64,000 nucleotides of DNA from Flavobacteriales bacterium (lineage in GTDB: Bacteria; Bacteroidota; Bacteroidia; Flavobacteriales_F; PHOS-HE28): NCBI GenBank assembly GCA_023382455.1, contig JAHDVX010000005.1, positions 133,861 to 197,860 on the forward strand. Reading direction: 5' to 3'. A program made the translations under genes and the position numbers. Under the pieces are notes generated by a model. It ran no database searches, was not told where the DNA came from, and saw only the letters and a list, made by a program, of their open reading frames with translations. Each line of letters starts with the position of its first letter. Position 1 is the first letter of the stretch. Positions 35,701 through 50,759 of this stretch are shown piece after piece.

Positions 35701-35757
35701 CAGCCCTTCATCCCGGGTCCGGCACGGGGTGGCAATCTCCCCGAAGCGACAAATACC

Positions 35758-37149: not shown

Positions 37150-37985
37150 ATCGAATCGTCCATTAAATTGATTGGTACGAAGGTGACCTCATACGAGGTA
37201 TATTATACAATGAAGAGGCTTTGTTACTTAAATGACATTCTTTTCATTCCGAATATACGAGCTAAGCCATGGAATGTAGCCCTGACTAACTAATTTCAAT
37301 CGGTTATTTGACTTGCTCCGTACATTATCAAGCACCCAAGCAGTAAACCTTTTTGTCTCTTCAAGTGTAGTATCGTCCTTATCGCAAAACATCCAAGTGT
37401 TATTTTTTTTCCATATTATCCAGCTGTATTTCTGTACATGACATATAGCTTGTATGTGATTTATATTTTTTGATAGCCATGACTTGTCATGACCATTTTT
37501 CAATTCGGATATGCGATTTCCAGTAAAGCCGATTATGCCCTTTAAGACACTTATATCGCTTTTTAATCTTTTACTCTTATTCATGACTGAATCGAAATGT
37601 TTGAATTTTTCTTCTGTATCTTCTATTGATTTCTTGGTTAATGATGACTTCACCTCAATAACTGCCAGTACACTTTCATATGGAAAAACACCTAATCCAC
37701 TATTCTTAATTATCGGCGGTAAAATGCGATTATCCGTAATTATTATGTCCATCTGGTGACTTTGATTTCCATAAGCGTCCACGACTATTCCTGTTCCTAT
37801 GTCAAATTGGCTTGTTAAGTAGTTTGATAATAATTCACTTGTAAACAATTCTCTAAGTTCGCCCTTTGTTAGTTTGTGATTGAGCTTGGTTAATGATAAT
37901 ACGCGCTCATAAAAGCCCTTGAATTGGGCACTTGCATAGTCTTTAATCAACGTGCTATTGGTCATTCTGAGCAACAGTTAAGATT
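37150..37985. mobile_element. AT-rich (~36% GC) ~0.8-kb foreign insertion between glmM and the parDE module, carrying a single gene
   Basis: Abrupt GC drop from ~65% to ~36% at both edges. The right edge falls inside the parE coding region. Confidence 0.7.
37228..37974 (-). CDS. hypothetical PD-(D/E)xK nuclease-like protein (248 aa) on the AT-rich insertion
   Basis: QMDIIITD ... x30 ... VLAVIEVKSSL fits a D...(D/E)xK restriction-endonuclease-fold core. AT-rich codon usage is foreign to this genome. Confidence 0.5.
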   Translation of the reverse strand: MLRMTNSTLIKDYASAQFKGFYERVLSLTKLNHKLTKGELRELFTSELLSNYLTSQFDIGTGIVVDAYGNQSHQMDIIITDNRILPPIIKNSGLGVFPYESVLAVIEVKSSLTKKSIEDTEEKFKHFDSVMNKSKRLKSDISVLKGIIGFTGNRISELKNGHDKSWLSKNINHIQAICHVQKYSWIIWKKNNTWMFCDKDDTTLEETKRFTAWVLDNVRSKSNNRLKLVSQGYIPWLSSYIRNEKNVI

Positions 37986-38163
37986 TTGCTGATTCGTAGT
38001 TCATCCCGGAAGGCGGTGTGTTAGCGGCTTCCTGGCAGCCATGGATCAAAAGCCTGTAATAGGTCTCAGCCTGTTGCTCGGACCATCGCTTGATCGTGTA
38101 GGCCCAAATTAAGTTCAGTTCAGCAATGGCCTTGCGGCTCAGGACGAACCTGCGGTTAGCCAT
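37978..38163 (-). pseudogene. parE: C-terminally truncated ParE/RelE-family toxin (61 of ~95-100 aa)
   Basis: LSRKAIAELNLIWAYTIKRWSEQQAETYYRLLIHGCQEAANTPPSGMNYESAKS matches the ParE N-terminal two-thirds. The ORF terminates exactly where the AT-rich DNA begins, and the expected C-terminal beta-sheet region is absent. Confidence 0.6.
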
Positions 38164-38401
38164 GTTTGCGGGCCTTCAGTTCCTGGAGATGCCTTTCCGG
38201 GTCGAAGTCGGGGTCGAAACCACTTTCAATGCCTTCGTCTATGGCATGCTGAAGCGCCAAGATTCGCTTCTCATCGGGTTCCAATAGGCGAATACCTGCA
38301 CGGATCACCTCGCTCACATTCCGGTACCTGCCACTGGTGATCTGTCGCTGTATGAATTGCTCGAAATGTTCACCCAACGAAACGGAAGTGTTGCTCGCCA
38401 T
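38156..38401 (-). CDS. parD: ParD/CopG-family antitoxin
   Basis: 81 aa ribbon-helix-helix antitoxin ([41 protein letters not shown]). Overlaps parE by 8 nt. A TACTTTTG -7 box (38418-38425, minus strand) lies ~19 nt upstream. Confidence 0.8.
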
Positions 38402-38547
38402 GGAAGTTGACTTTGAACAAAAGTACCAATAACGGGTAAGTGGGAAATCCTTCTGCATATCGCTTCCCGCTCCCCATGCCCGCCAGCGCTTTAACCGTTG
38501 CTGAGGAATGGGGCAGCCTCCCCGCAACTCCGTAATTTCGCCGCCCC

Positions 38548-39687
38548 ATGGAACGCATCTATCTCGACAACGCCGCCACTACCCAACTGGACCCCGAGGT
38601 GATTGAGGCCATGCTGCCCTACATGCACGAGGTCTACGGAAACCCCAGCGCCATCCATGCCTTCGGGCGCAAGGCGCGGGCCGGCATCGAGCAGGCGCGG
38701 CGCATGGTGGCCAAGCTGCTCCACTGCGCACCGGGCGAGATCGTCTTCACCAGCTGCGGCACCGAGGCCGACAACATGGCCGTGTTCGGCAGTGTGCGCG
38801 ACCTGGGCGTGAAGCACGTGATCACCTCGCCCATTGAGCACCATGCCGTGGAGCATGTGGCCCAAGCGCTGGAGCGTACCAAGGAGGCCGAGGTGCATTG
38901 GCTGCGGCTGCAACCCGACGGCAAGGCCGACCTGGCCCACCTGGAGGAGTTGCTGAAGGCGCACCAGAACGTGCTGGTCTCGCTGATGCACGCCAACAAC
39001 GAACTGGGCACCCGCAACGACCTGATGGCCATCGGCACCCTCTGCCGCAAGTACGGCGCGCTTTTCCACACGGACACCGTGCAGACCATGGGCCACTACC
39101 GCTTCGACCTGGAACAGCTGCCCATCGACTTCCTCACCTGCAGCGCGCACAAATTCCATGGCCCCAAGGGCGTGGGCTTCCTGTACATGCGCAGCAGCTC
39201 GGTACTGCGGCCCATGATCGTGGGCGGGGCGCAGGAGCGCAACATGCGTGCCGGCACGGAGAACATCATCGGCATCGTGGCGCTGGCCAAGGCCATGGAA
39301 GTGGCCTACCGCGACCTCGATGAGCACCAGCGCCACATCCAGGCGTTGAAGGACCGCATGCGCGAGCGCATCCTGGCCAACATCCCCGGCAGCAGCGTCA
39401 ACGGCGACCCAAGCCCCGACAGCCTGTACACCGTGCTCAACATCCACCTGCCGGATGACGGCAAGGCCGAGATGCTGATCTACAACATGGACATCGAGGG
39501 CATCGCGTGCAGCGGCGGCAGCGCCTGCAGCAGCGGCAGCAACAAGGGCAGCCACGTGATCGACGCGCTCTATCCCGGCCGCATGGGCGCCAACATCCGC
39601 TTTTCCTTCAGCAAGTTCAACACCGAGGCCGACGTGGACCGCGCCGCGGAGGTGCTGGAGAAGGTGGTGATGCCGGTGGGGGTGTGA
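38548..39687 (+). CDS. cysteine desulfurase (NifS/IscS, class V aminotransferase)
   Basis: [13 protein letters not shown]-terminus, [13 protein letters not shown]-lysine, catalytic Cys loop [12 protein letters not shown]. 379 aa. Confidence 0.9.
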
Positions 39688-39696
39688 GTGGGTCCA

Positions 39697-39710
39697 GTTC
39701 TTAGTTGTCA
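39697..39710. repeat. two heptamer units (gttctta gttgtca) of the same family as the fabG-flanking arrays, in the 20-bp gap between the nifS stop and the HIRAN stop
   Basis: Seen directly; overlaps the HIRAN stop codon. This is the left boundary of the ~8-kb segment that ends at the nifS 3'-end remnant. Confidence 0.5.
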
Positions 39711-40244
39711 GATGCCGGTCGGGGGGGCATCCTCCTCCCCGCCGTATTCCGGCCGCAGCTTGTACCCCGCATCAGGCCGCGCCATGTACTCGTCCAAATA
39801 GGCGTCGAAGCTGGGGGTGCTGGGCAGCAGCAGGTACACCGAGAAGAAACATTGTTCCCACGGCGGCAGTTCGGGCGCGGTGTAGGCCACCTCGGCTTCC
39901 AGCAACAGGCCATGGTCCAACATGGCGGCCAGGCTGATGTTCTCGCCCATGGGCAGGTAGCCCAGCTTGTGCCCTTCCCAGTACACGGCCACGGCGTTGC
40001 TGTCGTGTTCATTGCCATGTTCGCGCACCAGGTCCAGCGGGTCCTGCGCCTTCATGCGATGGATCACCTTCGCACCATCGTGGTATTGAAAGCCGCGCAC
40101 GAAACTGTCGAACACGAACACCGAATGGCTATCCTTCGTCCAGGCCAAGCGGTCCTGCTCCTTGGCGCTCAGCAGCGTCCACGGCGGCAACGTCAGCAGC
40201 GCGGTGCCGCCCATCAGGCGCTTTAGGAAGGTGATGCGGTCCAT
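39708..40244 (-). CDS. HIRAN-domain protein (178 aa)
   Basis: HIRAN-like core ...EHDSNAVAVYWEGHKLGYLP.... ATG at 40244; the upstream part of the track ORF is non-coding-like. Confidence 0.65.
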   Translation of the reverse strand: MDRITFLKRLMGGTALLTLPPWTLLSAKEQDRLAWTKDSHSVFVFDSFVRGFQYHDGAKVIHRMKAQDPLDLVREHGNEHDSNAVAVYWEGHKLGYLPMGENISLAAMLDHGLLLEAEVAYTAPELPPWEQCFFSVYLLLPSTPSFDAYLDEYMARPDAGYKLRPEYGGEEDAPPTGI

Positions 40245-40346
40245 GGGGGGAAGGTAGGGTGATCCCGTGCGCCACCCCGAACCCGAAGATTTCCGGGGTC
40301 TGTCCGTTCCCAAATGCGATCTTCGCAAGGTAGCTTCCCGATCGCC

Positions 40347-40843
40347 ATGGACCTTACCCAATTGACCGATGCTGAACTTGAAGGCCTCAGGAAGATGCCC
40401 AAGCATGTCGTGAACGCTAAGGCCAGGACAGTACAGTACAGAAAGATGGAACGGACCAGCGTAACTACAACATTGTCAGCGACATCGGCAATCAGGAGTT
40501 CATCCTGTACTTGCGCCAGAACTTGCGGCCGGGCATGGAAGATGATTTCTCCTGTGGGCTCCGGATCGTAAGGCGGAACGGCCTTTCCTTGACCCTTTGC
40601 CGGTATAATGGTCCCAGCCATCGCCACAGGAATCATTTGGAAGGCAATGAGTTCAGGTTCAAGGCCCACATCCATCAGGCTACAGGGCGATATATCGATG
40701 CCGACTTACAGCCGGAAGGCTATGCAATTGATACCGACCGGTTCAGAACTTTGAAGGGCGCGCTCCACTGCTTGGTTCAGGATTGCGCTATTTCGGGCTT
40801 GGATACCGAAGCTGATGCACCTACGTTATTCGAAATGCCATGA
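40347..40843 (+). pseudogene. hypothetical gene disrupted by a 5-bp tandem duplication (ACAGT/AGTAC x2 at ~40428-40441)
   Basis: The N-terminus (MDLTQLTDAELEGLRKMPKHVVNAKARTVQ) is in frame 0 and the remainder (...KDGTDQRNYNIVSDIGNQEFILYLRQNL...TLFEMP) is in frame +2. Deleting one repeat unit restores a continuous 168-aa ORF. The 3' end overlaps the next gene as ATGA. Confidence 0.55.
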
Positions 40844-41622
40844 ACCTCGACCTCGATCAGCTCCAATCCAACCTTTGCAAGGCACTGTGCGCCGAGGTAC
40901 AGGTGGTGCCCCGGTCCAAGGACCTGGCCGTGGTGCTTACGCCATTCGAGTTTCCGGACGGTGATGCCTACCAACTCTATCTGAAGGAGTTGCAGGGAGG
41001 CAGACTTCGATTGAGCGACATGGGCCACACGTTGCTGCATCTCAGTTATGAGAACGAGACAGGCAAATTCCGCAATGGCACCAGGGCCAAATTGCTTGAA
41101 CGCATATTGGCCGAGACCGGTGTGGGCGAGGCGGATGGTGAATTTTATGTGGACACCGATCCCGCCGGTCTGGCACCAGCCATTTGGCATTTGGGGAAGG
41201 CGTTGGTGCAGGTGAACGACCTTACCTTCTTGAACCGGGAGCGGGCGGAAAGCACGTTCTATGAAGATCTGCGGGAGCAACTATTCGATCTGGTCCCGAA
41301 TGACAAGATCCAGGCGGACTACATCGTCCCGGAATTGCCGGAGGCCAAGTTGTACCCCATCGATTACCGGATAGAGGGCAAACATGCCCCGCTCTTTGTG
41401 CTGGGCATACCCAATAAGGACAAGGCGCAACTGGCCACGATCGTACTACAACAGTTGCAAGGCCAAGGCGTGGAGCACGAATCGCTCTTGATCTTCGCCG
41501 ACCAGACCGGCCTGCCCCGCAATGTATTGGCGCGCTTGAGCAATGTGGGCGGTGAACAGATCGCCAGCCTGGATGCGGAAGAGGATATCAAGCGTAAGAT
41601 CCTGCGGAAGGTGGCCGGTTAA
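40840..41622 (+). CDS. hypothetical protein (260 aa), translationally coupled to the upstream frameshifted gene; mid-GC (~52%)
   Basis: Clean ORF with ATG start and an ATGA overlap. Possibly a DUF1828-like family (uncertain). Confidence 0.55.
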   Translation: MNLDLDQLQSNLCKALCAEVQVVPRSKDLAVVLTPFEFPDGDAYQLYLKELQGGRLRLSDMGHTLLHLSYENETGKFRNGTRAKLLERILAETGVGEADGEFYVDTDPAGLAPAIWHLGKALVQVNDLTFLNRERAESTFYEDLREQLFDLVPNDKIQADYIVPELPEAKLYPIDYRIEGKHAPLFVLGIPNKDKAQLATIVLQQLQGQGVEHESLLIFADQTGLPRNVLARLSNVGGEQIASLDAEEDIKRKILRKVAG

Positions 41623-41943
41623 CAAACAGCATTTCAATCCAAGCTCCTATTCCGAGCCTGGTACGTATAGGCCCGGGGCCAGTAAGCATACCTCTACCCT
41701 TATGCGGTCACGGTATTTGAGGCTCCGACCTGACCAATGCTTGGCATGGTTGCGACTGGCATCCTGACCCGCGCAATGAGTTATTTTCCAGTGAACGGCG
41801 AGGATGTGCCCCTGCGCTGCATGGGCTTGCGATGGCAATGGTAAAGCATGGGGGAATCCAGCAAGAGCATCTTCGGGAGTTCACTTTTGCCGGCAGACCC
41901 TGCCCAAGAGCCATGCAGAGGCTGGAATCACTGTGGATCGGCT

Positions 41944-42312
41944 TCACAATGGGAATTTCTTCTCATCCAAGGCATTGGCTGCGATCTGCGCTGCTTGGCC
42001 GAGTTCCTCCGCGCAAGTGGCATTCTTGGTAAATTCCATGGCTAGGACCAGTTGGGCACGTTTCTGTTGATCGTTCATGGATGCCAACAATTTCTCTATG
42101 GCCTTCCGTAGCCTGCCCTTTATCTGTTTTCTGAGCTCCTTCGGACTGATGCCAATTTGCGGCTTGCCTGATCTTTCTCTTTCCTCGTGGTACGCTAATC
42201 CGATCAAATCCTTTTCCGATGGGTCCCGGGCATCACCGGTACCATATTTCTTGCCCCGCACATGGAGGCACACCACTTCATAGGCCATTGCTGCCTTCTC
42301 AATGTTCGTCAT
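41944..42312 (-). CDS. hypothetical protein (122 aa), mid-GC
   Basis: Clean ORF, ATG start, 37-bp gap to the upstream co-oriented gene. Confidence 0.45.
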   Translation of the reverse strand: MTNIEKAAMAYEVVCLHVRGKKYGTGDARDPSEKDLIGLAYHEERERSGKPQIGISPKELRKQIKGRLRKAIEKLLASMNDQQKRAQLVLAMEFTKNATCAEELGQAAQIAANALDEKKFPL

Positions 42313-42348
42313 GACCTCGCTGTTCTGTAATCGTCACCTTTGACTTTT

Positions 42349-42918
42349 CTAAGCCCCTGCGGGCAGGTACGCCGAAAGGGATCCCATGGCCCCTGCAATT
42401 TTTTCCACCAGCGGTTTCGCCACCGCCTCGGATACCATCCCGGCCGCCACCCAATCGCCTACCGTCCCGGCAAACTGCCGTTTCCATTTCCGCTTGCCTA
42501 AATACATCAGATCCTTCAGGTCTTCCACGTCCTGGGCAATGATGCCCTGTCCGTCCCTGATCTGTTCGAGGTCCTTGAGGATCTGGTCCAAGCGATCCAG
42601 CATGGAATCCCGTTCTTCCGGCGTAAAGGCATCCTCATCCACATTCACCCCCAGGCGAGCCAGTTCCTGGTTCAGGAAGTAGCTGTTTTTCGGGTACGCC
42701 TTTTCATACGAACAATTCGGGCTGGTGCAGTTGGTCGCACGGTGTTCCATGATCCATTTGACCTGGTCTTCCAACAGAATGGTGAGAAAGTCGATCCGGT
42801 CTTTCCTGGAGTCGATCTCGTGTGCCGCCTGCCTCGCCTTGGGCAGGTAGTCCTTCGATTCGTAGTAGTTCCTGTTCTTTTTGGTAAACTCTTCAGCGAG
42901 CTGGCGGATGACATTCAT
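42349..42918 (-). CDS. hypothetical protein (189 aa), mid-GC, divergent from the MmeI-like gene
   Basis: Clean ORF, protein-like composition (CTSPNC motif, coiled-coil-like C-terminal half). Confidence 0.5.
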   Translation of the reverse strand: MNVIRQLAEEFTKKNRNYYESKDYLPKARQAAHEIDSRKDRIDFLTILLEDQVKWIMEHRATNCTSPNCSYEKAYPKNSYFLNQELARLGVNVDEDAFTPEERDSMLDRLDQILKDLEQIRDGQGIIAQDVEDLKDLMYLGKRKWKRQFAGTVGDWVAAGMVSEAVAKPLVEKIAGAMGSLSAYLPAGA

Positions 42919-43026
42919 GTTTCGAGTGGGTTGACGGCTATTTTGTCAAGTGAGGTTTAGTAAGATATGCCGCAAGGTGCAGCCCGTACACGGTAGTTAT
43001 CCACATCCTTCCCCATCTTCGCCTCC

Positions 43027-45873
43027 ATGCCGCTCAGCCGCCGCGAGATCCGCACCCGGGCCGTCCGTTTTGTGAAGCACTGGAAGGAGGCCGCCAACGA
43101 GGAGGCCGACGCCAAGCCCTTCTGGTACGAGTTCTTCCACATCTTCGGCATCCGCGCACGCACCGTGGGCAGCTACGAAGTACACGTGCGCAAGCTGGAC
43201 AATGCCCTGGGTAAGATCGACTACTTCTGGCCCGGACTGCTGCTGATCGAGCACAAGAGCCGTGGCCGCGACCTGCAGAAGGCCGCCGTGCAGGCCGCCG
43301 ACTACCTCCATGGCGTAAAGGAGCATGAGAAGCCCCGCTACATCATCGTCAGCGATTTTACACGCTTCGTGCTGCATGACCTGGAGGAGGGCAGCGAAAT
43401 CGAACTGGCCCTGGAGGAACTGCCGGAACGCATCGGCCTCTTCGACTTCATCGCCGGCTACGAGGCGCGGCCCGTGCGCGAGCAGGACCCCGTGAACATC
43501 CGCGCCGCCGAGCTGATGGGCCAATTGCACGACGAGCTCAAGGCCTCCGGCTATGCCGGCAAGGAGCTGGAAGTCTACCTCGTGCGCCTGCTCTTCATCC
43601 TCTTCGCCGACGATACCGGCATCTTCGAGCTCGATGCCTTCTACAACTACATCGTGGACCAAACGCGTGAGGACGGCACCGACCTCGGCCCGCAACTGGC
43701 CCGCCTGTTCCAACTGCTGAACACCCCGCCGGAAAAGCGCCAGAAGAACCTGGACGAGCGCCTGGCCGACTTCAAATACATCAACGGAAAGCTCTTCGCC
43801 GAGCCGCTGCCCATCGCCGATTGGAACGGCGGCATGCGCGTCACCTTGCTGGAATGCGCCAGCCTCAACTGGAGCCGCATCAGCCCGGCCATCTTCGGCG
43901 CCCTCTTCCAAAGCGCCATGGACGCCAAGGCCCGCCGCAACCTCGGCGCGCACTACACCAGCGAGGCCAACATCCTCAAGCTCATCAAGCCGCTCTTCCT
44001 CGATGAACTCTGGGCCGAGTTCGAGAAAGTGAAGGGCAGCAAGCCCAAGCTGGACCGGTTCCACAAGAAGCTCAGCGAACTGCGCTTCCTGGACCCCGCC
44101 TGCGGCTGCGGAAACTTTCTGGTGATCACCTACCGCGAGCTGCGCGAACTGGAGATCGCCGTGATAACCGCGCAACTGAAAGGCCAGCAGGTGGTGGACG
44201 TGGACAAGCTGGTGCTGCTGAACGTGGACCGCTTCTACGGCATCGAGATCGAGGAATTCCCCGCGCAGATAGCCCAGGTGGCCCTCTGGCTGATGGACCA
44301 CCAGATGAACCAGCGCATCAGCGCCGCTTTTGGCGAGTACATGGTGCGCATCCCGCTGCGGGCCAGCGCCACCATTTTATGCGCGAATGCGTTGCGTACC
44401 GATTGGCAAAGCCTGCTGCCGGATGGCGAGCGGTACGATTACATACTTGGGAATCCGCCGTTCATCGGCAGTAAACTGATGACCCCTGAAATGCGCGCGG
44501 CCATCCTGCGCATCTTCCCCGGGGTGAATGGCGCGGGCACATTGGATTTCGTGTGCGGCTGGTACGGTCTGGCCGTGCAGTACATGAAGGCACAGCGTGT
44601 CAGGCCGAGCGAAGCCGAGCAGCGTGTCAGGCCGAGCGAAGCCGAGCAGCGTGTCAGGCCGAGCGAAGCCGAGGCCACACGCTGCGCTTTTGTGAGCACC
44701 AACAGCATTACGCAGGGCGAACAAGTGGGCGCACTGTGGGGACCGCTGCTTGCCCAAGGCATCAAGATCCACTTTGCACACCGCACCTTCCGCTGGAACA
44801 ACGAGGCCCGTGGCGTGGCCGCTGTGCACTGCGTCATCATCGGCTTCGCGGATCACGATACGGACAAGAAGCACCTCTTCAGCTACGCCGATGAACGCGG
44901 CGAAGCGGAAGAACAGTTGGTGCGGAACATCAACCCGTACCTGGTGGATGGGCCGGACGTGGTGATCCGCAGCCGAAGCAAGCCGCTTTGCAAGGTGCCA
45001 GAGATCGGCATTGGAAACAAGCCCATCGACGGAGGTAACTACCTCTTCACCGATGAGGAGAAGGCTGCGTTCATCCATTTGGAACCAGCGTCCAAGAAGT
45101 ATTTCAGGCGCTGGTTGGGCAGTGATGAATTCATCAACGGCTGGCACCGCTGGTGCCTTTGGCTAGGCGAAGCGGCTCCAGGTGAGTTGCGCTCCATGCC
45201 GGAGGTGATGAAGCGCGTGGAAGCCGTGCGCAGGTTGCGGCTGGAGAGCAAGAGCGCGCCCACCCGCAAGCTGGCCGAAACCCCGACCCGCTTCCATGTG
45301 GAGAACATGCCGAAGAAGGAATACCTGATCATTCCGGAAGTTTCTTCGGAACGGCGGCCATTCATTCCGATCGGCTTCGAGAACCCAAGTACGCTTGCAA
45401 GCAACTTGGTCAAGATCCTTCCCAACGCATCGAAATACCACTTCGGCATCCTGAGCAGCACCATGCACAATGCGTGGATGCGAGCCGTCTGTGGAAGGTT
45501 GAAGAGTGACTACCGCTACTCCAAGGACATTGTCTACAACAACTTCCCTTGGCCCACCAATCCTACTGTCGCGCAACAGGCGGCCGTGGAGCAGGCCGCG
45601 CAAGGCGTGCTGGATGCGCGTGCAGCGCACACCACCCCTGTCAGTTCGAGCGCAGCCGAGAACGGCAGGGGTGCCAGCCTCGCCGACCTCTACGACCCGC
45701 TCACCATGCCGCCCAACCTGGTAAAGGCCCACGCCGCGCTGGACAAGGCCGTGGACAGGTGCTATAGGCCGCAAGCCTTCGAGAGCGATGCCAAACGGGT
45801 GGAGTACTTGTTCGGGTTGTATGAGAAGTACACGGCGGGGTTGGTGGGGGTGAAGTTGACCAAGAAGATGTGA
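43027..45873 (+). CDS. MmeI-family Type IIL restriction-modification enzyme (fused PD-ExK endonuclease + gamma-class N6-adenine methyltransferase + TRD), 948 aa
   Basis: N-terminal D-x-EHK nuclease motif (GKIDYFWPGLLLIEHKSRGRDL) closely resembling the MmeI N-terminus; DPACGCGNFL (motif I), ILGNPPF (motif IV), FVSTNSITQGEQV; length close to MmeI (919 aa). Confidence 0.85.
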   Translation: MPLSRREIRTRAVRFVKHWKEAANEEADAKPFWYEFFHIFGIRARTVGSYEVHVRKLDNALGKIDYFWPGLLLIEHKSRGRDLQKAAVQAADYLHGVKEHEKPRYIIVSDFTRFVLHDLEEGSEIELALEELPERIGLFDFIAGYEARPVREQDPVNIRAAELMGQLHDELKASGYAGKELEVYLVRLLFILFADDTGIFELDAFYNYIVDQTREDGTDLGPQLARLFQLLNTPPEKRQKNLDERLADFKYINGKLFAEPLPIADWNGGMRVTLLECASLNWSRISPAIFGALFQSAMDAKARRNLGAHYTSEANILKLIKPLFLDELWAEFEKVKGSKPKLDRFHKKLSELRFLDPACGCGNFLVITYRELRELEIAVITAQLKGQQVVDVDKLVLLNVDRFYGIEIEEFPAQIAQVALWLMDHQMNQRISAAFGEYMVRIPLRASATILCANALRTDWQSLLPDGERYDYILGNPPFIGSKLMTPEMRAAILRIFPGVNGAGTLDFVCGWYGLAVQYMKAQRVRPSEAEQRVRPSEAEQRVRPSEAEATRCAFVSTNSITQGEQVGALWGPLLAQGIKIHFAHRTFRWNNEARGVAAVHCVIIGFADHDTDKKHLFSYADERGEAEEQLVRNINPYLVDGPDVVIRSRSKPLCKVPEIGIGNKPIDGGNYLFTDEEKAAFIHLEPASKKYFRRWLGSDEFINGWHRWCLWLGEAAPGELRSMPEVMKRVEAVRRLRLESKSAPTRKLAETPTRFHVENMPKKEYLIIPEVSSERRPFIPIGFENPSTLASNLVKILPNASKYHFGILSSTMHNAWMRAVCGRLKSDYRYSKDIVYNNFPWPTNPTVAQQAAVEQAAQGVLDARAAHTTPVSSSAAENGRGASLADLYDPLTMPPNLVKAHAALDKAVDRCYRPQAFESDAKRVEYLFGLYEKYTAGLVGVKLTKKM
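44593..44673 (+). repeat. perfect 27-bp x3 in-frame tandem repeat (cagcgtgtcaggccgagcgaagccgag) inside the MmeI-like gene, encoding (QRVRPSEAE)x3
   Basis: Seen directly. Located between the MTase motif IV region and the FVSTNS motif. Confidence 0.85.
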
Positions 45874-45976
45874 GTCCGCCCGCGCATGCAGCGCAGGTGT
45901 GGCGGGGTACTGGCAAACCCTGCATCTGCCCTGGCATGAACTTGGCGCGGTCTCGCGGAAGACAAGAAGCATCCCC

Positions 45977-46591
45977 ATGTCCCGTTCAACCTTCATGCCT
46001 AGGATCCATCTCCACGCCGTCCGGCTATTGCTCGCCCTGCTGGCCGCATCGCCCGTAGCGGCGCAATCCGACTTCTGCGACCGCTTGGCCGATTCCGCGC
46101 TGGTGCTCACCACGCAACATGTGCAGTACGACCCGTCCTATTTCCGCATCGCCTACCCCAACGGGGATGTGCCGACCGGCAAGGGCGTGTGCACCGATGT
46201 GGTGATCCGCGCCTATCGGAAGGTGGGCATCGATCTGCAGAGGTTGGTGCATGAGGACATGCGCGCCGCCTTCGACGAATACCCTCGCAATTGGGGCCTT
46301 GCTCGTCCCGACCCCAACATCGACCATCGGCGCGTGCCCAACCTGATGACCTTCTTCAAGCGGCACGGGACCGTTTTGAAGCCGTCCAACGATGCCCGCG
46401 ATTACAAGCCGGGCGACGTGGTGTGCTGGGACCTCGGTGGGGGTATCACGCACATCGGGATCGTATCCAGGAAACGCTCCACGGATGGCCAACGCCCGTT
46501 GATCGTTCACAACATCGGGGCAGGGCAGGTCCTGGAGGATTGCCTTTTCCGCTTTCAGGTGATCGGGCACTACCGCTACGGGAATTTGTAA
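45977..46591 (+). CDS. DUF1287-domain secreted protein
   Basis: Signal peptide. YDPSYFRIAYPNGDVPTGKGVCTDVVIRAYRKVGIDLQ...NIDHRRVPNL...HIGIV matches the DUF1287 pattern. Confidence 0.7.
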   Translation: MSRSTFMPRIHLHAVRLLLALLAASPVAAQSDFCDRLADSALVLTTQHVQYDPSYFRIAYPNGDVPTGKGVCTDVVIRAYRKVGIDLQRLVHEDMRAAFDEYPRNWGLARPDPNIDHRRVPNLMTFFKRHGTVLKPSNDARDYKPGDVVCWDLGGGITHIGIVSRKRSTDGQRPLIVHNIGAGQVLEDCLFRFQVIGHYRYGNL

Positions 46592-46689
46592 ACAAGTGTG
46601 GTACTTGGCGGAAATTCCGGTCGGCATCATTGCATGTACTTCAGGGTACAATTGCCCCCGGAACTGTGGCCAGGGATACATTTGTAATC

Positions 46690-47400
46690 ATGCGGGTCGG
46701 CCTCTTCATCCTATTAGTCGTTTCGGTGGGTGCGGTTCGTGCGCAGCAGCCGGATACCACGGATCTGAAGGCCGACGGTGTGTATAAGCACATCGTTGGC
46801 GTGCATAACAAGAAAGGGGTTTATTCCGGCCATGTGGAGTACTTCGATTCGACTTGGACGCTCCGGCTACGGGGCTTTGCCAAGCGCGGGAAGTGGGAGG
46901 GTCTCGTGGAATATTTCGACTCTACGGGCGTGCTGCAACGAAAGGGCATGGCCCTACACGGCAAATGGAACGGGCTGGTCATCAGCTATTGGGGCAACGG
47001 GCAGGTCTTAAGCGAGACCCCCTTTGTCAAAGGCAAAGCCAGTGGTGTGTTTAAGGCGTATTATGCCAACGGCCGGATGTCCTACACCTTTCCGTACCAC
47101 GACGGGCGCATGTCAGGGGAATGGATGATGTGGGATTCCACCGGTGCCGCCGCGAATGGTGACCTGCTGATCAGGTGGCCTGGCGGTGGTTCCTTGCAGG
47201 TGCATTGCATCCAAGGCCGGCCGGAAGGTAAGATGGTCAGCAAGCGGATGGATGGCCAGTTTGCGGGGATCGGCATATTCCGGTCGGGCTTGCCGGAGGA
47301 TGACCTCATCTATTACAACCGCAACGGCACACCGGTCAGGAAGGACAGCTACAAGCAAGGCCGCTTCGTGAAATCCGTTCCCTTGAACCAGTATCCTTGA
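46690..47400 (+). CDS. YwqK-family / MORN-repeat protein, secreted
   Basis: Signal peptide, repeated G-x-W-x-Y-x-x-G MORN-like units. A TACATTTG -7 box (46677-46684) lies 5 nt upstream of the ATG, so the transcript is probably leaderless. Confidence 0.7.
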   Translation: MRVGLFILLVVSVGAVRAQQPDTTDLKADGVYKHIVGVHNKKGVYSGHVEYFDSTWTLRLRGFAKRGKWEGLVEYFDSTGVLQRKGMALHGKWNGLVISYWGNGQVLSETPFVKGKASGVFKAYYANGRMSYTFPYHDGRMSGEWMMWDSTGAAANGDLLIRWPGGGSLQVHCIQGRPEGKMVSKRMDGQFAGIGIFRSGLPEDDLIYYNRNGTPVRKDSYKQGRFVKSVPLNQYP

Positions 47401-47489
47401 TGAGGCCCCGAAAAGCTGGACAACGGAGTCCCACCTACCGAATCTGTCCGTCCCCGAAGGGTCCGCCATGAATCGGAGATCTGGGTAGG

Positions 47490-47580
47490 CGCGACCCGGC
47501 GGGGACGGGGACAAGGGCGGTCACGTCATTGATGCGCTCTACCCGGCCGTACCGGGGCCAACATCCGCTTTTCCTTTCGT
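47490..47580 (+). pseudogene. decayed ~75-bp remnant of a NifS/IscS cysteine desulfurase 3' end (about 80% identical to 39541-39610, with a frameshift)
   Basis: acaagggcggtcacgtcattgatgcgctctacccggccgt-accggggccaacatccgcttttcctt aligns to the intact gene's ...[23 protein letters not shown]... region, including a 19-nt identical run. Confidence 0.55.
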
Positions 47581-47785
47581 GGAGCGTCTGGTGTTCCATT
47601 CATGCCCGACGCGGCCCATGGCACAGGCATGGTTTGCTTCCTACAAGAGAAGCCCTTGAAGTGATGGTTCCTGCCGCGAATTGCAAAGCGCAATGCGAAG
47701 AGGAAACCGGTCCGCATGCCGGGACATTCCGTGGAAAAGGGGGTGGAGTCGCGGGTGGATGCGTGCTGGCTGCTACTTTCCCACC

Positions 47786-48733
47786 ATGAAATTGCGACAG
47801 CTTCCGCTCTTCCTCCTGCTCATCGCCGCCCTGAGCTCATGCAATGTGGTGCATATGGGCGTGCGCCGCGACACCAAGGCCATGGAGAAGGCAGGGCTGA
47901 AGGCCTACACCTTCACCGATGCCGCGGGGCCGCACTACGTGTGGAGCAGCACCAAGCCGGGCAGCGCCGATGATGGCCGGCCGAAGCTGATGCTGGTGCA
48001 TGGCATCACCAGCCAAAGTCTGATGTGGGCCAGGAACGTGAAGGACCTGTCCGCACACTACGACCTGATCATCCCCGACCTGATCGGCCATGGCCACAGC
48101 ACCGCGCGGTGGACCGGCAACAGCGTGAATGCCCAGACAGCGCACTTGGACCAGATCCTGGACAGCCTCAAGATCGAACAACCGGTGAACCTGGTGGGCG
48201 GTTCCTACGGCGGCGCCATCGCGGCCAACTTCGCCGAGCAGTACCCGGAACGCGTGAAGAAGCTGGTGATCTACGACGGGCCGGCCAGCGATTACACGCG
48301 CGCCATGGCGGACAGCGTGGCGCGGTCCGTGGGCGCCGCGGGCATCAAGGACCTCTTTGAGCCCAAGGACCCGGAAGGCCAGAGGCGCCTCATCTCATTG
48401 GTCACCTACAAACCGATGAAGGTGCCGCGCTTTGCCCTGCACCAGCTGTACGAGGCCATGAAGGACAAGATGCCGAACTACTCCTCACTGCTGCAGGACC
48501 TGCTGGACCGTGCACCGCAGTATGAGCAGAAGACCTACCGCTGGCCCATGCCGGTGTATGTGTTCTGGGGCGCGGGCGACCGCCTGATCCCGATCTCCGT
48601 GGGCCGGGGCATCGTGGCCCGGAACCACCTGCCGGCGGACCATTTCCTGGTGATCCCCCAAGCGGGCCATTCCGGAAACGTGGAGCAGCCGGAGTGGTTC
48701 AACGCCCATTTGATGGAGGTGTTGGGCAAGTAG
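47786..48733 (+). CDS. alpha/beta hydrolase lipoprotein
   Basis: Lipobox LSSC, HGITS, GGSYGG nucleophile elbow, C-terminal His. Confidence 0.8.
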   Translation: MKLRQLPLFLLLIAALSSCNVVHMGVRRDTKAMEKAGLKAYTFTDAAGPHYVWSSTKPGSADDGRPKLMLVHGITSQSLMWARNVKDLSAHYDLIIPDLIGHGHSTARWTGNSVNAQTAHLDQILDSLKIEQPVNLVGGSYGGAIAANFAEQYPERVKKLVIYDGPASDYTRAMADSVARSVGAAGIKDLFEPKDPEGQRRLISLVTYKPMKVPRFALHQLYEAMKDKMPNYSSLLQDLLDRAPQYEQKTYRWPMPVYVFWGAGDRLIPISVGRGIVARNHLPADHFLVIPQAGHSGNVEQPEWFNAHLMEVLGK

Positions 48734-48755
48734 GAAGCCTCTTGCCCGGGCTTCG

Positions 48756-49655: not shown

Positions 49656-50049
49656 GGAAATCGGGTCCGTGGCCAAGGTAGTCCGCCGGGTGGCATGGGC
49701 ATCCCGGTACTGCTTGACTGGACCGTCGCCCATTGGGCCTGAGGCGATGGCCCTAACAATGCCTTGCGAGTGCCTCGAAGAACCTCGCTCCGGTCTCTTG
49801 CGCCATAACTCCTTGCTCCGCCGAAGCGGCTACTCAAAGGCGAAGTCAGCGACGGCGCGCGTCGTTCATGGCAAGGGCGTATAGCGGTCATCGCTTGCCT
49901 TCATTCGCCCCTACTTCTCCCGCCAAGTCGGAATGAAACAGTTGCCTCCGCCGGTCGGATGCTTCGTTCCCGTTTTCTCTCTTCGGAACGCCTCGTTTGG
50001 ACGAATGATAGCGGCGCGCGCCATCCGTTCGAGGTTTTTCGAGGCACCT

Positions 50050-50601: not shown

Positions 50602-50759
50602 GGGGGCAGGCTGGCTGGTGCACGAAGCTACTGAGGGCAGGTGAAAATTCAGCATCGCCCACCTGTTGGACGGATCATTTTGGCCCCGGAGAAGCAACGG
50701 GTCGCCATCGTCCTTGCCTGGTTCAACACACGCCCGCAGTTGGCGTGTTGGCGGAGTTG

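What the first reader, a model, noticed from the sequence alone, without database searches (positions are those of the whole stretch)
38548..47600. Decayed copy of the cysteine-desulfurase 3' end 7.9 kb downstream of the intact gene delimits an ~8-kb segment carrying an MmeI-family RM enzyme
A ~75-bp stretch at 47490-47580 is ~80% identical, with a 19-nt perfect run and a 1-nt frameshift, to the region encoding ...[23 protein letters not shown]... at the nifS/iscS 3' end (39541-39610). Everything between is accessory-looking: a HIRAN protein, a frameshifted gene, mid-GC (~52%) hypotheticals, an MmeI-like Type IIL RM enzyme, DUF1287 and YwqK proteins. It begins 10 bp after the nifS stop, where two GTTGTNN heptamers sit. 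This repeats the sucD pattern: an intact gene end, an inserted block, then a displaced and degraded original gene end. That suggests a defense-carrying island integrated at the 3' end of a housekeeping gene, with no integrase retained. Alternatively it is a decayed tandem paralog of nifS.
Basis: partly seen in the sequence, partly recalled or inferred. Interest (0 to 1): 0.7.

Follow-up and report, generated by a model that had tools for sequence, protein, structure and literature searches.

The report
Recombination scar beside a cysteine-desulfurase gene
A 67-base dead fragment of a cysteine-desulfurase gene lies 8 kb downstream of the intact gene; it is a leftover of DNA exchange between related Flavobacteriales strains in a stretch that swaps defence genes, which is an ordinary kind of genome plasticity.

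Summary
The repeat is real. Window 47511-47576 matches nifS codons 332-353 (39542-39608) at 85% over 67 nt, with a 1-nt deletion (E 7e-15; shuffles never approach it).

It is a fragment of an orthologous nifS allele, not a decayed copy of the adjacent gene. Seven of nine substitutions fall on third codon positions. It is also closer to sister-clade nifS genes (91%, 90%) than to its neighbour (85%).

Distant relatives carry nifS, a 190-aa pentapeptide gene, then the hydrolase.

But the 8 kb is not one integrase-borne island:
- DUF1287 and MORN_2/YwqK are regular nifS neighbours in close relatives.
- MmeI and a 189-aa ORF (plus a 122-aa ORF in some strains) sit in an internal slot. In conspecific strains that slot holds IS3+VapBC or a Y1 transposase, and one such strain keeps the remnant without MmeI.
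- nifS and the hydrolase act as homologous anchors. All four combinations of left and right variants exist, and the two resolved crossovers lie inside the hydrolase.

Best reading: a recombination scar (a displaced gene end) in a flank-anchored variable, defence-rich region. It is ordinary in kind and of modest interest.

The parts
35683..37149 (+). Phosphoglucosamine/phosphomanno-mutase gene. Conserved left-flank core gene and part of the low-divergence tract shared with the sister clade.
   Evidence: Pfam PGM_PMM I-IV in the called genes. It is syntenic in all relatives. K4 is 0.19-0.21 against L091/L112, versus a background of about 0.55.
37139..38041 (-). Strain-specific low-GC (34-46%) insert with a DUF6602 / NucC-like PD-DExK gene (37228-37974). 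It takes the place of ParE in other strains.
   Evidence: GC profile. Pfam DUF6602 at 6e-26. PADLOC PD_DExK and NucC models. Homology with strains L082, L083, L084, L086 and L087 breaks at 37138 and resumes at 38042; those strains have ParE here.
38156..38458 (-). ParD-family antitoxin gene immediately upstream of nifS.
   Evidence: NCBIfam TIGR02606 at 2.2e-26, above its cut-off. Pfam ParD_antitoxin in the called genes.
38548..39687 (+). Intact class-V aminotransferase / cysteine desulfurase (NifS/IscS-like), 379 aa. It serves as the left homologous anchor and its sequence is a mosaic of related lineages.
   Evidence: Pfam Aminotran_5 at 4.9e-80. NCBIfam NifS scores 406 bits, below the 530 cut-off. 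Graded orthologue series from 95% down to 70%. Mosaic informative sites.
39542..39608 (+). Resident copy of the repeated segment (codons 332-353, ...[23 protein letters not shown]). An 18-nt x2.3 GGCAGC-rich micro-repeat (39499-39540) abuts it on the left.
   Evidence: for the alignment; for the micro-repeat.
39708..40244 (-). HIRAN-domain gene (178 aa), convergent with nifS.
   Evidence: Pfam HIRAN at 6.2e-17. PADLOC PDC-M03B at 9e-13. Present in all conspecific strains and in none of the other lineages examined.
40300..41622 (+). Two-gene pair, DUF6978-like plus DUF1828 (PADLOC candidate system PDC-M24 A/B). The first gene is frameshifted here by a 5-nt ACAGT duplication within 40422-40445. 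The DUF1828 gene is 40840-41622.
   Evidence: Pfam DUF1828 at 3.9e-21. PADLOC PDC-M24B at 5e-16 and PDC-M24A at 0.0075. PHROGs 27326 and 5059. The ORF is an intact 174 aa in L083, and the 5-nt indel is shown and located.
41663..45962 (.). Strain-variable slot. Here it holds a 122-aa ORF (41944-42312, -), a 189-aa ORF (42349-42918, -) and MmeI. L083 has IS3 plus a 117-aa/PIN pair, with its breakpoint at about 42140. L082, L084, L086 and L087 have a Y1 transposase plus a 149-aa ORF, with their breakpoint at 41662.
   Evidence: Gene tables. blastn breakpoints. Junction alignments.
43027..45873 (+). MmeI-family single-chain restriction-modification enzyme (Type IIL/IIG), 948 aa.
   Evidence: All five MmeI Pfam domains at 1e-22 to 1e-84. 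PADLOC REase_MTase_IIG at 1184 bits. 1067 bits to MmeI, PDB 5HR4, over the full length, with D..ExK, DPACGCGNF and NPPF aligned.
44593..44673 (+). Perfect 3 x 27-nt tandem repeat inside MmeI. It encodes (QRVRPSEAE)x3 and is a 27-aa insertion relative to MmeI residues 528-530.
45977..46591 (+). DUF1287 gene. A lineage-typical downstream neighbour of nifS.
   Evidence: Pfam at 8.8e-71. It sits directly after nifS in L091/L119 and L109, and is fused to MORN_2 in L112. K4 is 0.40-0.42 against the sister clade.
46690..47400 (+). MORN_2 (YwqK-like) repeat protein gene. A lineage-typical neighbour.
   Evidence: Pfam MORN_2. It sits directly after nifS in L095, L096 and L097 and is fused to DUF1287 in L112. 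K4 is 0.64 against L112.
47466..47509 (+). Relic of a VapB-like 117-aa antitoxin gene (codons about 26-40). It abuts the nifS relic.
   Evidence: 44 nt, 86% identical to L083 6312-6355, which lies inside the intact 117-aa gene of the 117-aa/PIN pair; E = 1e-8.
47511..47576 (+). nifS pseudogene fragment (codons 332-353; [23 protein letters not shown], with a 1-nt deletion).
   Evidence: It is identical in strain L083 and absent from L091, L092, L095-L097, L112, L109 and L119.
47577..47771 (.). 195-nt spacer of unknown origin between the relic and the point where homology with the sister clade's hydrolase locus begins.
   Evidence: It matches only the window's own record (L081) and L083 among the 130 loci. 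No Rfam hit. No trace of the 190-aa gene.
47786..48733 (+). Alpha/beta hydrolase gene. The ancestral right-hand neighbour and the right homologous anchor.
   Evidence: Pfam Abhydrolase_1 at 1e-29. Synteny nifS, 190 aa (-), hydrolase in L116-L118. Crossovers within its first ~110 nt in L083 and L119.
47772..56341 (.). 8.57-kb tract (hydrolase, urea transporter, 201-aa gene, and the OEP, ACR and MFP genes of an RND efflux system). It is nearly identical to the tract in a sister-clade strain (L119).
   Evidence: 97.9% identity over 8,570 nt with no gaps. K4 is 0.00-0.02 for five genes, against 0.53-0.57 just outside the tract.

Best explanation
The DNA between nifS and the alpha/beta-hydrolase gene is a replaceable interval. 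It is held between two conserved genes that serve as homologous anchors for exchange among related Flavobacteriales populations.

The 67-nt fragment is the displaced 3' end of an earlier nifS allele of the sister-clade type. DNA from a related lineage, beginning inside the nifS 3' region and carrying that lineage's own downstream genes (at least DUF1287 and MORN_2), was captured through its nifS homology. The most likely route is a single crossover with a re-circularised fragment; a less likely route is one-sided homologous plus illegitimate joining. The incoming piece completed the gene. The old gene end was pushed about 8 kb downstream, next to the old neighbour.

The old end was no longer needed. 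It took a frameshift and was trimmed by deletions that also removed the 190-aa pentapeptide gene. A VapB-like gene relic sits against it.

MmeI entered later and separately, into an internal slot that turns over between strains. No dedicated integrase is involved.

Shown: the relic, its allele affinity, the synteny, the strain-variable slot and the flank crossovers. Inferred: the order of events and the capture mechanism.
For: 1. The relic is real and lies on the same strand as nifS.
2. Most divergence between the relic and the resident gene arose under protein-level constraint, that is, in two functional alleles. Seven of 9 substitutions are at codon position 3 (P = 0.008). The encoded [19 protein letters not shown] is exactly the peptide of orthologues P0002-P0005 and P0007-P0009, whereas the resident gene has M for T.
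3. At the 7 sites where the resident gene differs from L112, the relic sides with L112 at 5, with the resident at 1, and 1 is the deleted base. Identities are 91.0% (L112), 89.6% (L091) and 85.1% (resident).
4. The relic sits 210 nt upstream of the hydrolase, which follows nifS (with only a 190-aa gene between) in distant relatives L116-L118. The 190-aa gene is absent from the whole window.
5. PGM, nifS and the hydrolase share a young divergence from the sister clade (K4 0.19-0.21). DUF1287 (0.40-0.42) and MORN_2 (0.64) between them are close to the background of about 0.55. Against L117 all genes are 0.54-0.74, so the low values are not gene-specific constraint.
6. Informative sites in the resident nifS change character at the repeat's left edge. 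The ratio of sister-like to L109-like sites is 72:24 before 39542 and 9:10 after it (Fisher 0.026).
7. Exchange by flanking homology is visible directly. L083 is identical to the window from 38642 to 47762 outside the slot, but carries the L091-type hydrolase and downstream gene. L119 is L091-type on the left but window-type from the hydrolase onward. Both crossovers lie within the first ~110 nt of the hydrolase.
8. No integrase, tRNA or RNA family is present.
9. Single crossovers with re-circularised DNA are known to leave 109-950-bp duplications of the homologous gene end flanking the insert (PMC3240628).
10. The same layout (intact gene end, block, displaced copy) recurs at sucD in this window (72 nt, 98.6%) and at the hydrolase in L091 (109 nt, 96.3%).
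Against: - The relic is only an internal 67 nt, and both of its ends are secondary junctions: a VapB-like relic on the left and unmatched spacer on the right. The original junctions are gone, so the mechanism cannot be read from them.
- The ancestry switch in the resident gene is only suggestive. Fourfold-site divergence of its last 50 codons from L091 (0.22 raw, 23 sites) is no higher than in the rest of the gene. The gene also has other mosaic patches, for example 38833-39022, which is L109-like.
- The closest relatives already have DUF1287 after nifS. The recipient would therefore have had to lack it, or have lost it first, which adds a step.
- No genome was found with the uninterrupted arrangement of sister-type nifS, the 195-nt spacer, then the hydrolase, and no empty-site strain was found.
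- Most comparison sequences are metagenome contigs. L083 is a single 10.8-kb contig, although its right part is 100% identical to the independent contig L104.
Confidence: 0.45

Rival explanations
1. An imported second copy. A fragment from a sister-clade-like donor was joined in after MORN_2. It carried a TA pair, a whole nifS, perhaps the 190-aa gene, and the hydrolase. It was anchored by homology on its right side (hydrolase and downstream) and joined illegitimately on its left. The redundant second nifS was then whittled down by deletions to 67 nt. On this view the relic belongs to the hydrolase side, and the HIRAN-to-MORN_2 block is native.
For: - The relic is sister-clade-like, and the window's hydrolase is also closer than background to the sister clade (K4 0.20 against L091).
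- A VapB-like gene relic lies directly to the left of the nifS relic. TA pairs sit just upstream of nifS in many relatives, though on the opposite strand.
- DUF1287 and MORN_2 show background-like divergence, as native genes would.
- DUF1287 and MORN_2 are regular nifS neighbours in the clade.
Against: - It needs a donor with nifS close to the hydrolase and at least two internal deletions.
- It gives no reason for the change of informative-site pattern in the resident nifS at the position where the relic begins.
- In present-day recombinants the relic travels with the block, not with the hydrolase. L083 keeps the relic with a different hydrolase allele.
- The TA pairs upstream of nifS in relatives are on the minus strand, whereas the relic's antitoxin fragment is on the plus strand.
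Confidence: 0.3
2. A single ~8-kb mobile defence island integrated site-specifically into the nifS 3' end. It brought a replacement gene end as part of its attachment site and has since lost its integrase.
For: - The layout of intact gene, block and displaced partial copy in direct orientation is the one left by islands that target tRNA or gene 3' ends.
- The block is rich in defence-type genes: HIRAN/PDC-M03B-like, PDC-M24, MmeI.
- GC is lower at 40.2-43.2 kb.
Against: - No recombinase is found in this or any conspecific variant, apart from an IS3 transposase and a Y1 transposase inside the variable slot.
- The block is never seen present or absent as a unit. Only its internal slot varies, and MmeI is missing from a strain that keeps the relic.
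- DUF1287 and MORN_2 are ordinary nifS neighbours in relatives.
- The repeats differ mainly at synonymous sites instead of sharing an identical core that then decayed.
- The repeat stops 79 nt short of the stop codon.
- The same layout at sucD and at the L091 hydrolase would need three different lost integrases.
Confidence: 0.08
3. A decayed tandem paralog. The resident nifS, or its 3' part, was duplicated in place within this genome, and the extra copy eroded.
For: Same strand and same locus. Short internal fragments are what late-stage pseudogenes look like.
Against: - The substitution pattern is that of two selected alleles, not neutral decay of a copy (7 of 9 at codon position 3).
- The relic shares third-position and T-for-M states with sister-clade orthologues and not with the resident gene.
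- The copies are 8 kb apart with unrelated genes between them.
Confidence: 0.05

Closest known systems
Core-gene-flanked defence hotspots (for example the 'core defense hotspots' of Pseudomonas aeruginosa, PMC10250203)
   Same: A fixed chromosomal site bounded by conserved genes, with different defence, TA or IS cargo in different strains and no resident integrase. That paper proposes transfer of the whole region by homologous recombination in the conserved flanks. Here flank crossovers are seen directly.
   Different: This interval is small (about 8 kb) and was seen in uncultured Flavobacteriales assemblies. The flanks are nifS and a hydrolase, not tRNA or tmRNA markers. The interval also holds non-defence lineage genes (DUF1287, MORN_2) and a pseudogene scar.
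C-terminal / 3'-end displacement in rhs and T6SS effector-immunity arrays (Jackson et al. 2009, as cited in PMC5361080; Kirchberger et al. 2017, PMC5361080)
   Same: Incoming DNA shares the conserved upstream part of a gene and brings a new 3' end plus cargo. The old 3' end is shifted downstream and persists as an orphan. [quoted passage not shown]
   Different: Here the gene is a housekeeping enzyme, and the new and old ends encode the same protein, so nothing new is gained at the gene end. The orphan is a 67-nt non-functional relic, not an expressed module, and no toxin/immunity logic applies.
Single-crossover (Campbell-type) capture of re-circularised DNA (PMC3240628)
   Same: In experiments it yields an insert flanked by a direct duplication of 109-950 bp of the homologous gene end, without any site-specific recombinase. 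That matches the duplications at sucD (72 nt), the L091 hydrolase (109 nt) and, before trimming, nifS.
   Different: This was a laboratory plasmid system in E. coli. Here the event is only inferred from its product, and the nifS copy has lost both of its original boundaries.
Integrative islands that target the 3' ends of tRNA, tmRNA or protein genes
   Same: The order of intact gene, inserted block and displaced partial gene copy as direct repeats.
   Different: There is no integrase, no identical att core and no unit-wise presence or absence. The repeats differ by allele-type (synonymous) changes.
Minimal mobile elements of Neisseria (Saunders and Snyder 2002; from my own knowledge, not checked here)
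   Same: Alternative gene cassettes between the same pair of conserved genes, exchanged by homologous recombination in the flanks.
   Different: Natural competence is not known for this lineage, and the cargo and taxon differ.
MmeI (Type IIL restriction-modification enzyme, PDB 5HR4)
   Same: Full-length collinear match of 1067 bits. All five MmeI domains are present, and the nuclease D..ExK, the SAM motif and NPPF all align.
   Different: It carries a 27-aa perfect triple repeat in place of MmeI residues 528-530. Its recognition sequence and activity are unknown.

Membership tests
MmeI-family Type IIL/IIG restriction-modification enzyme | Single polypeptide with the MmeI N-terminal nuclease, helical spacer, methyltransferase, TRD and C-terminal domains in order. 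| tested here: met
   Pfam MmeI_N, MmeI_hel, MmeI_Mtase, MmeI_TRD and MmeI_C are all above their cut-offs. Collinear alignment to 5HR4 over residues 1-945.
MmeI-family Type IIL/IIG restriction-modification enzyme | Catalytic motifs: PD-ExK-type nuclease residues, the SAM-binding motif and NPPF/NPPY. | tested here: met
   In the 5HR4 alignment, IDYFWPGLLLIEHKSRG aligns with VDLFWPGILLIEMKSRG. DPACGCGNFL and GNPPF are identical.
MmeI-family Type IIL/IIG restriction-modification enzyme | Enzymatic activity: cleavage about 20 nt from the site and one-strand m6A modification. | not testable with these tools
   The ORF is intact (948 aa), but it carries a 27-aa tandem-repeat insertion in the methyltransferase region. 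Its effect is unknown.
Site-specific integrative genomic island at a gene 3' end | An integrase or recombinase gene within or next to the island. | tested here: not met
   None among the window's ORFs. In conspecific variants the only transposition genes are IS3 (rve) and Y1_Tnp, both inside the variable slot.
Site-specific integrative genomic island at a gene 3' end | Direct repeats (attL/attR) that include the gene's end, with an identical core. | tested here: inconclusive
   The direct repeat is 67 nt at 85% with a 20-nt exact run. It stops 79 nt before the stop codon and differs mostly at synonymous sites.
Site-specific integrative genomic island at a gene 3' end | The whole element is present or absent as a unit among close relatives. 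| tested here: not met
   Only the inner slot 41663/42141-45962 varies among conspecific contigs. No empty site was seen in any relative.
Core-gene-flanked variable / defence hotspot | The same conserved flanking genes across related genomes. | tested here: met
   TPR, PGM and nifS on the left are conserved in all the relatives examined except L095-L097, where the genes upstream of nifS differ. On the right, the hydrolase and/or UT and the RND genes are conserved in L091, L119, L083, L095, L098 and L116-L118.
Core-gene-flanked variable / defence hotspot | Different cargo between strains and lineages, enriched in defence, TA and mobile-element genes. | tested here: met
   Window: HIRAN, PDC-M24 and MmeI. 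L083: IS3 plus a 117-aa/PIN pair. L082 type: Y1_Tnp. L109 and L112: PemK TA. L112: Amidohydro_3 plus TMEM175. L091: GEVED, FGE-sulfatase and MFS.
Core-gene-flanked variable / defence hotspot | Exchange by homologous recombination in the flanks. | tested here: met
   All four combinations of left and right variants exist (window, L083, L119, L091). Crossovers map to hydrolase nt ~30-110, and the left edge of the L083 tract lies inside nifS at about 38642.
Gene 3'-end displacement scar (single-crossover or HFIR capture) | An intact gene followed downstream, on the same strand, by an orphan copy of its 3' part. | tested here: met
Gene 3'-end displacement scar (single-crossover or HFIR capture) | The orphan is a different allele of the same ortholog (donor/recipient divergence), not a decayed self-copy. 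| tested here: met
   Seven of 9 substitutions are at codon position 3. The orphan is closer to L112/L091 than to the resident gene, and its peptide is identical to the P0002-P0005 type.
Gene 3'-end displacement scar (single-crossover or HFIR capture) | The orphan is followed by the gene's ancestral downstream neighbour. | tested here: inconclusive
   The hydrolase follows 210 nt later, and it is the second gene after nifS in L116-L118. However, the 190-aa gene and the last 79 nt of nifS are missing, and close relatives have DUF1287 next to nifS.
Gene 3'-end displacement scar (single-crossover or HFIR capture) | Original junctions: microhomology for HFIR, or a duplication running to a common boundary for a single crossover. 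| tested here: inconclusive
   Both ends of the relic are secondary junctions: a VapB-like relic at 47466-47509 and unmatched spacer after 47576.
PADLOC candidate system PDC-M24 | Adjacent A and B proteins matching both models. | tested here: inconclusive
   B matches at 5e-16. A matches only at 0.0075 (tested with the intact L083 protein), with Pfam DUF6978 marked weak. The A gene is frameshifted in the window.
NifS (FeS-cluster assembly cysteine desulfurase, TIGR03402 equivalog) | Score above the curated equivalog cut-off. | tested here: not met
   406.6 bits against a cut-off of 530.75. IscS and other models are also below their cut-offs. Class-V aminotransferase membership is met (Pfam, 269.7 bits against 21.5). 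'Cysteine desulfurase family' is therefore safe, while 'NifS' is only a label.

The most novel reading that the evidence does not exclude
In this Flavobacteriales lineage, new genes may be routinely inserted just downstream of conserved genes by an integrase-free, homology-driven 'gene-end displacement'. The incoming DNA carries the gene's last 70-150 nt, completes the gene and shifts the old end downstream. Three independent examples fit this: nifS and sucD in this window, and the hydrolase in relative L091. If so, displaced gene ends would be a general, datable marker of gene gain in genomes without recognisable mobile elements.
Probability: 0.25. Interest if true: 0.5.

Novelty: new member of a known kind. 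Interest (0 to 1): 0.3.

Why it matters
The finding shows how an RM enzyme and other defence candidates can sit next to a housekeeping gene without any mobile-element machinery. The region is held between two conserved genes and is swapped among related populations by ordinary recombination.

The short pseudogene fragment is a datable scar of one such event. It warns against reading every 'gene end, block, gene-end copy' layout as an integrase-borne island.

The locus also documents very recent exchange of 8.6 kb (hydrolase, urea transporter, RND efflux) between populations that differ at roughly 40% of fourfold-degenerate sites (raw 0.38-0.40; about 0.55 substitutions per site after correction). 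That is useful for judging species boundaries and chimerism in metagenome-assembled genomes. None of this is new in kind.

Tried and rejected
1. The genome-contig scan with NifS gave a nearest species representative at only 70% identity, on a 6-kb contig. It was useless for synteny.
2. The metagenome scan with the hydrolase returned only one close locus (L104), truncated at its 5' end.
3. I looked for traces of the missing nifS tail, of the 190-aa pentapeptide gene, and of relatives' intergenic DNA in 47401-47785, using blastn (word size 7), tblastn and tblastx. Nothing turned up beyond the 67 nt and the 44-nt VapB-like piece.
4. tRNA, tmRNA, Rfam and promoter/terminator scans of the region found nothing above chance.
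5. I looked for remnants of nifS downstream in relatives and found none in the loci compared (L091, L092, L095-L097 directly; L098, L100, L102, L109, L112, L116, L117 and L119 in window-versus-locus blastn).
6. I tested whether the resident nifS 3' end is foreign. The informative-site switch is suggestive (Fisher 0.026), but fourfold-site divergence is not raised. I use it only as supporting evidence.
7. I looked for an empty site for the analogous sucD duplication among strains with the identical SucD. All 8 keep the Sel1 gene, so no mechanism could be read from it.
8. I checked whether the 149-aa ORF in L082-type strains is the start of another MmeI. There is no similarity; only a shared 23-mer lies upstream.
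9. The 'GTTGTNN heptamers' were rejected as a junction signal. They lie within the 27 nt after the stop codon, across which the blastn alignment with L112 continues at about 91% identity overall.
10. Chance similarity was rejected.

Full report
**The observation**

The resident gene at 38548-39687 (+) encodes a 379-aa class-V aminotransferase of the cysteine-desulfurase family. It matches Pfam Aminotran_5 at 4.9e-80. Its NCBIfam NifS score of 406 bits is below the 530 equivalog cut-off, so 'nifS' is only a label.

A local alignment pairs 39542-39608 with 47511-47576. It spans 67 columns with 57 matches, 9 substitutions, a one-base deletion in a C run and a 20-nt exact run. blastn of the gene against the window gives E = 7e-15 for this pair and 0.075 for the next best hit. 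Codon-shuffled genes reach 32.7 +/- 2.8 (maximum 44) against 82 observed. A self-comparison of the window shows only three other repeat pairs.

The fragment covers codons 332-353 only. Nothing is detectable to the left of about 47508 or to the right of 47576, so the last 79 nt of the gene are not represented.

**What lies between the two copies**

The features, in order:

| Coordinates | Strand | Feature |
|---|---|---|
| 39708-40244 | - | HIRAN gene |
| 40300-40843 | + | DUF6978-like gene, broken by a 5-nt ACAGT duplication |
| 40840-41622 | + | DUF1828 gene |
| 41944-42312 | - | 122-aa ORF, no family match |
| 42349-42918 | - | 189-aa ORF, no family match |
| 43027-45873 | + | 948-aa MmeI homologue |
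| 45977-46591 | + | DUF1287 gene |
| 46690-47400 | + | MORN_2 / YwqK-like gene |
| 47511-47576 | + | nifS relic |
| 47786-48733 | + | alpha/beta hydrolase gene |
| 48756-49733 | - | urea transporter gene |

The DUF6978-like and DUF1828 genes together correspond to PADLOC candidate system PDC-M24 A/B. The 5-nt duplication is shown and located. The MmeI homologue has all five MmeI domains and scores 1067 bits to PDB 5HR4, with the nuclease, SAM and NPPF motifs aligned.

GC drops to 52-56% only between about 40.2 and 43.2 kb. There is no integrase, tRNA or Rfam match.

**Where the window comes from, and what its own species shows**

The exact NifS protein occurs on 20 contigs. One of them, GCA_048500375.1 contig JASNYC010000001.1, is identical to the window. 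Sources name the homologues 'Flavobacteriales bacterium' MAGs.

Among conspecific contigs, homology with the window is continuous from 38042 to 41662. After that point the content differs:
- L082, L084, L086 and L087 carry a Y1 transposase and a 149-aa ORF.
- L083 carries IS3 plus a 117-aa/PIN pair, with breakpoints at about 42140 and 45963.

L083 contains the relic unchanged but has no MmeI. MmeI and the 189-aa ORF, with the 122-aa ORF in L082-type strains, therefore occupy an inner, strain-variable slot. They arrived independently of the relic.

A second variable slot lies upstream of nifS. The low-GC DUF6602 / NucC-like gene (37139-38041) replaces ParE there.

**What relatives show**

I walked down the NifS orthologue series and fetched contexts. 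The percentages are protein identity to the window's NifS, except for the last row.

| Locus (orthologue, identity) | Gene order downstream of nifS |
|---|---|
| L091, L119 (P0003, P0004; 94%) | nifS, DUF1287, 190-aa pentapeptide gene (-), GEVED, FGE-sulfatase, MFS, hydrolase |
| L112 (P0002, 95%) | nifS, Amidohydro_3, TMEM175, a DUF1287::MORN_2 fusion, 190 aa (-), PemK TA, MFS |
| L109 (P0006, 93%) | nifS, DUF1287, PemK TA |
| L095 (P0011, 89%) | nifS, MORN_2, 190 aa (-), urea transporter (-) |
| L098 (P0016, 87%) | nifS, 190 aa (-), urea transporter (-), RND efflux genes |
| L116-L118 (found through hydrolase homologues at 69% protein identity) | PGM, TA pair, nifS, 190 aa (-), hydrolase, ..., YkuD genes, RND efflux genes |

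The hydrolase is therefore an old near-neighbour of nifS, with only the 190-aa gene between them. DUF1287 and MORN_2 are regular neighbours within the closer clade, and everything else turns over. The 190-aa gene is absent from the entire window. None of the relatives' loci compared carries a nifS relic.

**Nature of the relic**

Seven of the 9 substitutions against the resident gene are at third codon positions (P = 0.008 under equal rates). Most of the divergence therefore accumulated while both sequences were parts of working genes.

The encoded [19 protein letters not shown] is exactly the sequence of orthologues P0002-P0005 and P0007-P0009, whereas the resident gene has M for T.

Nucleotide identity of the relic:

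| Compared with | Identity |
|---|---|
| L112 | 91.0% |
| L091 | 89.6% |
| Resident gene | 85.1% |
| L098 | 85.1% |
| L109 | 79.1% |

At the seven sites where the resident gene differs from L112, the relic agrees with L112 at five and with the resident at one. The seventh is the deleted base.

The relic is thus a piece of another allele of the same ortholog, of the sister-clade type, and has been a pseudogene only briefly. A recent self-duplicate or a distant paralog is not supported.

**Recombination landscape**

K4 below is the divergence at fourfold-degenerate sites (Jukes-Cantor corrected) between the window and the named relative.

| Gene | K4 vs L091 / L112 |
|---|---|
| Four genes further upstream | 0.50-0.72 |
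| TPR | about 0.36 |
| PGM | 0.19 / 0.21 |
| nifS | 0.21 / 0.20 |
| Hydrolase | 0.20 (L091) |
| DUF1287 | 0.42 / 0.40 |
| MORN_2 | 0.64 (L112) |
| Two genes beyond the RND cluster | 0.53-0.57 (vs L119) |

Against L117 all genes, including nifS and the hydrolase, are 0.54-0.74. The low values are therefore shared recent ancestry and not gene-specific constraint.

The two anchors are younger than what lies between them. nifS itself is a patchwork: 38833-39022 is L109-like and 39023-39537 is sister-like. The ratio of sister-like to L109-like informative sites changes from 72:24 before 39542 to 9:10 after it (Fisher 0.026). This is suggestive only, because fourfold-site divergence of the last 50 codons is not raised.

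Ongoing exchange is visible directly:
- Window 47772-56341 equals L119 9987-18556 at 97.9% with no gaps, and K4 is 0.00-0.02 across five genes.
- L119 is otherwise conspecific with L091: 99.3% over 10.9 kb, with the differences confined to the hydrolase.
- L083 is identical to the window from 38642 to 42140 and from 46113 to 47762. From about 47894 onward it carries the L091-type hydrolase and downstream gene, at 98.95% to L091 and 100% to L104.

All four combinations of left and right variants therefore exist. The two resolved crossovers lie inside the first ~110 nt of the hydrolase, and the left edge of the L083 tract lies inside nifS. The interval is exchanged by homologous recombination in its flanks.

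**The relic's immediate surroundings**

Directly to the left of the relic, 47466-47509 is 86% identical to codons about 26-40 of the 117-aa VapB-like gene that is intact in L083's slot (E = 1e-8). To the right, 195 nt match nothing outside this species. Both ends of the relic are therefore secondary junctions in a patchwork of gene fragments, and the original junctions are lost.

An 18-nt GGCAGC-rich micro-repeat in nifS (39499-39540) abuts the duplicated segment.

**Mechanism**

The layout of intact gene, block and orphan 3' piece on the same strand recurs twice more:
- At sucD in this window: 22275-22346 against 23113-23184, 72 nt at 98.6%, flanking a Sel1-repeat gene.
- At the hydrolase in L091: 109 nt at 96.3%, flanking a Por_Secre_tail gene.

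In both of those cases the duplication runs up to the stop codon.

Experiments in E. coli show that single crossovers with re-circularised DNA leave exactly such 109-950-bp duplications of the homologous gene end. Homology-facilitated illegitimate recombination usually leaves deletions instead (PMC3240628). Displacement of old 3' ends by incoming homologous DNA is also the accepted model for rhs and T6SS effector arrays (PMC5361080).

I therefore favour capture of a related lineage's DNA that began inside the nifS 3' region, followed by one or more deletions that trimmed the orphan and removed the 190-aa gene (confidence 0.45).

The main rival is import of a second, sister-type nifS together with the hydrolase, followed by erosion of that second copy (0.30). 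It fits the allele affinity and the adjoining antitoxin relic equally well. It does not explain the change of signal in the resident gene at the repeat's edge.

A lost-integrase island (0.08) and an in-place paralog (0.05) fit poorly.

**Comparison with known systems and verdict**

The locus works like a core-gene-flanked defence hotspot (PMC10250203) with a 3'-end displacement scar. The MmeI gene passes all sequence-level membership tests for its family. Integrase-island membership fails on the recombinase and on unit-wise mobility.

Caveat: most comparison sequences are metagenome contigs. However, the key arrangements recur in independent assemblies: L119, L120 and L121; L091-L094; and L083 with L104.

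The finding is a real and nicely resolvable example of a known kind of genome plasticity. Interest is modest (0.3).

Noticed in passing
window 47772-56341 (and L119 9987-18556): An 8.57-kb tract (alpha/beta hydrolase, urea transporter, a 201-aa gene, and the OEP, ACR_tran and MFP efflux genes) is 97.9% identical, with no gaps, to a strain of the sister clade. Fourfold-site divergence is 0.00-0.02 inside the tract and 0.53-0.57 just outside it. This is either a very recent inter-population transfer or, less likely, a consistent assembly chimera. It recurs in three assemblies.
   Followed up: partly
window 22275-22346 and 23113-23184: The last 72 nt of sucD (23111-23980, minus strand), up to the stop codon, are duplicated at 98.6% identity. 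The copies flank a 766-bp block that holds a 161-aa Sel1-repeat gene (22556-23041). All 8 contigs with the identical SucD protein keep the block, and no empty site was found.
   Followed up: partly
L091 17701-17809 (also L104 2611-2719): In a sister-clade genome the last 109 nt of the hydrolase gene are duplicated at 96.3% identity, 1.9 kb downstream. The copies flank a convergent Por_Secre_tail gene. This is the same layout as at nifS and sucD.
   Followed up: partly
window 44593-44673: A perfect 3 x 27-nt tandem repeat inside the MmeI methyltransferase region encodes (QRVRPSEAE)x3. Relative to MmeI (5HR4) the whole 27 aa is an insertion replacing residues 528-530. It may be a recent in-frame expansion, and copy-number variation was not examined.
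   Followed up: partly
window 37139-38041: A low-GC (34-46%) strain-specific insert carries a DUF6602 gene that matches the PADLOC NucC / PD-DExK nuclease models. It replaces the ParE toxin found next to ParD in other strains.
   Followed up: partly
window 47466-47509: A 44-nt relic of a VapB-like 117-aa antitoxin gene, 86% identical to the intact gene in L083 (6312-6355), lies directly against the left end of the nifS relic. The MORN_2-hydrolase spacer is therefore a patchwork of gene fragments.
   Followed up: partly
window 40422-40445: The DUF6978-like (PDC-M24A) gene is inactivated by a 5-nt ACAGT tandem duplication. Strain L083 has the intact 174-aa ORF, and L082-type strains share the duplication.
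   Followed up: yes
window 43001-43023 and L082 14093-14115: An identical 23-mer (CCACATCCTTCCCCATCTTCGCC) lies just upstream of the MmeI start codon. It also lies inside the otherwise unrelated cargo of L082-type strains, just upstream of a possible start codon. It could be a shared promoter or leader piece, or a cassette boundary.
   Followed up: no
L112 12025-13386: In one sister lineage DUF1287 and MORN_2 are called as a single 453-aa fused ORF.
   Followed up: no
window 61921-62622: A tandem array with a period of about 243 nt, with copies 73-74% identical, appeared in the self-comparison of the window.
   Followed up: no
window 38548-39687: nifS is a mosaic of alleles from related lineages. 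For example, 38833-39022 is 95-97% identical to L109 but about 90% identical to the otherwise closest L112/L091. PGM shows alternating stretches with fourfold-site differences of 0.04 and 0.2-0.4.
   Followed up: partly
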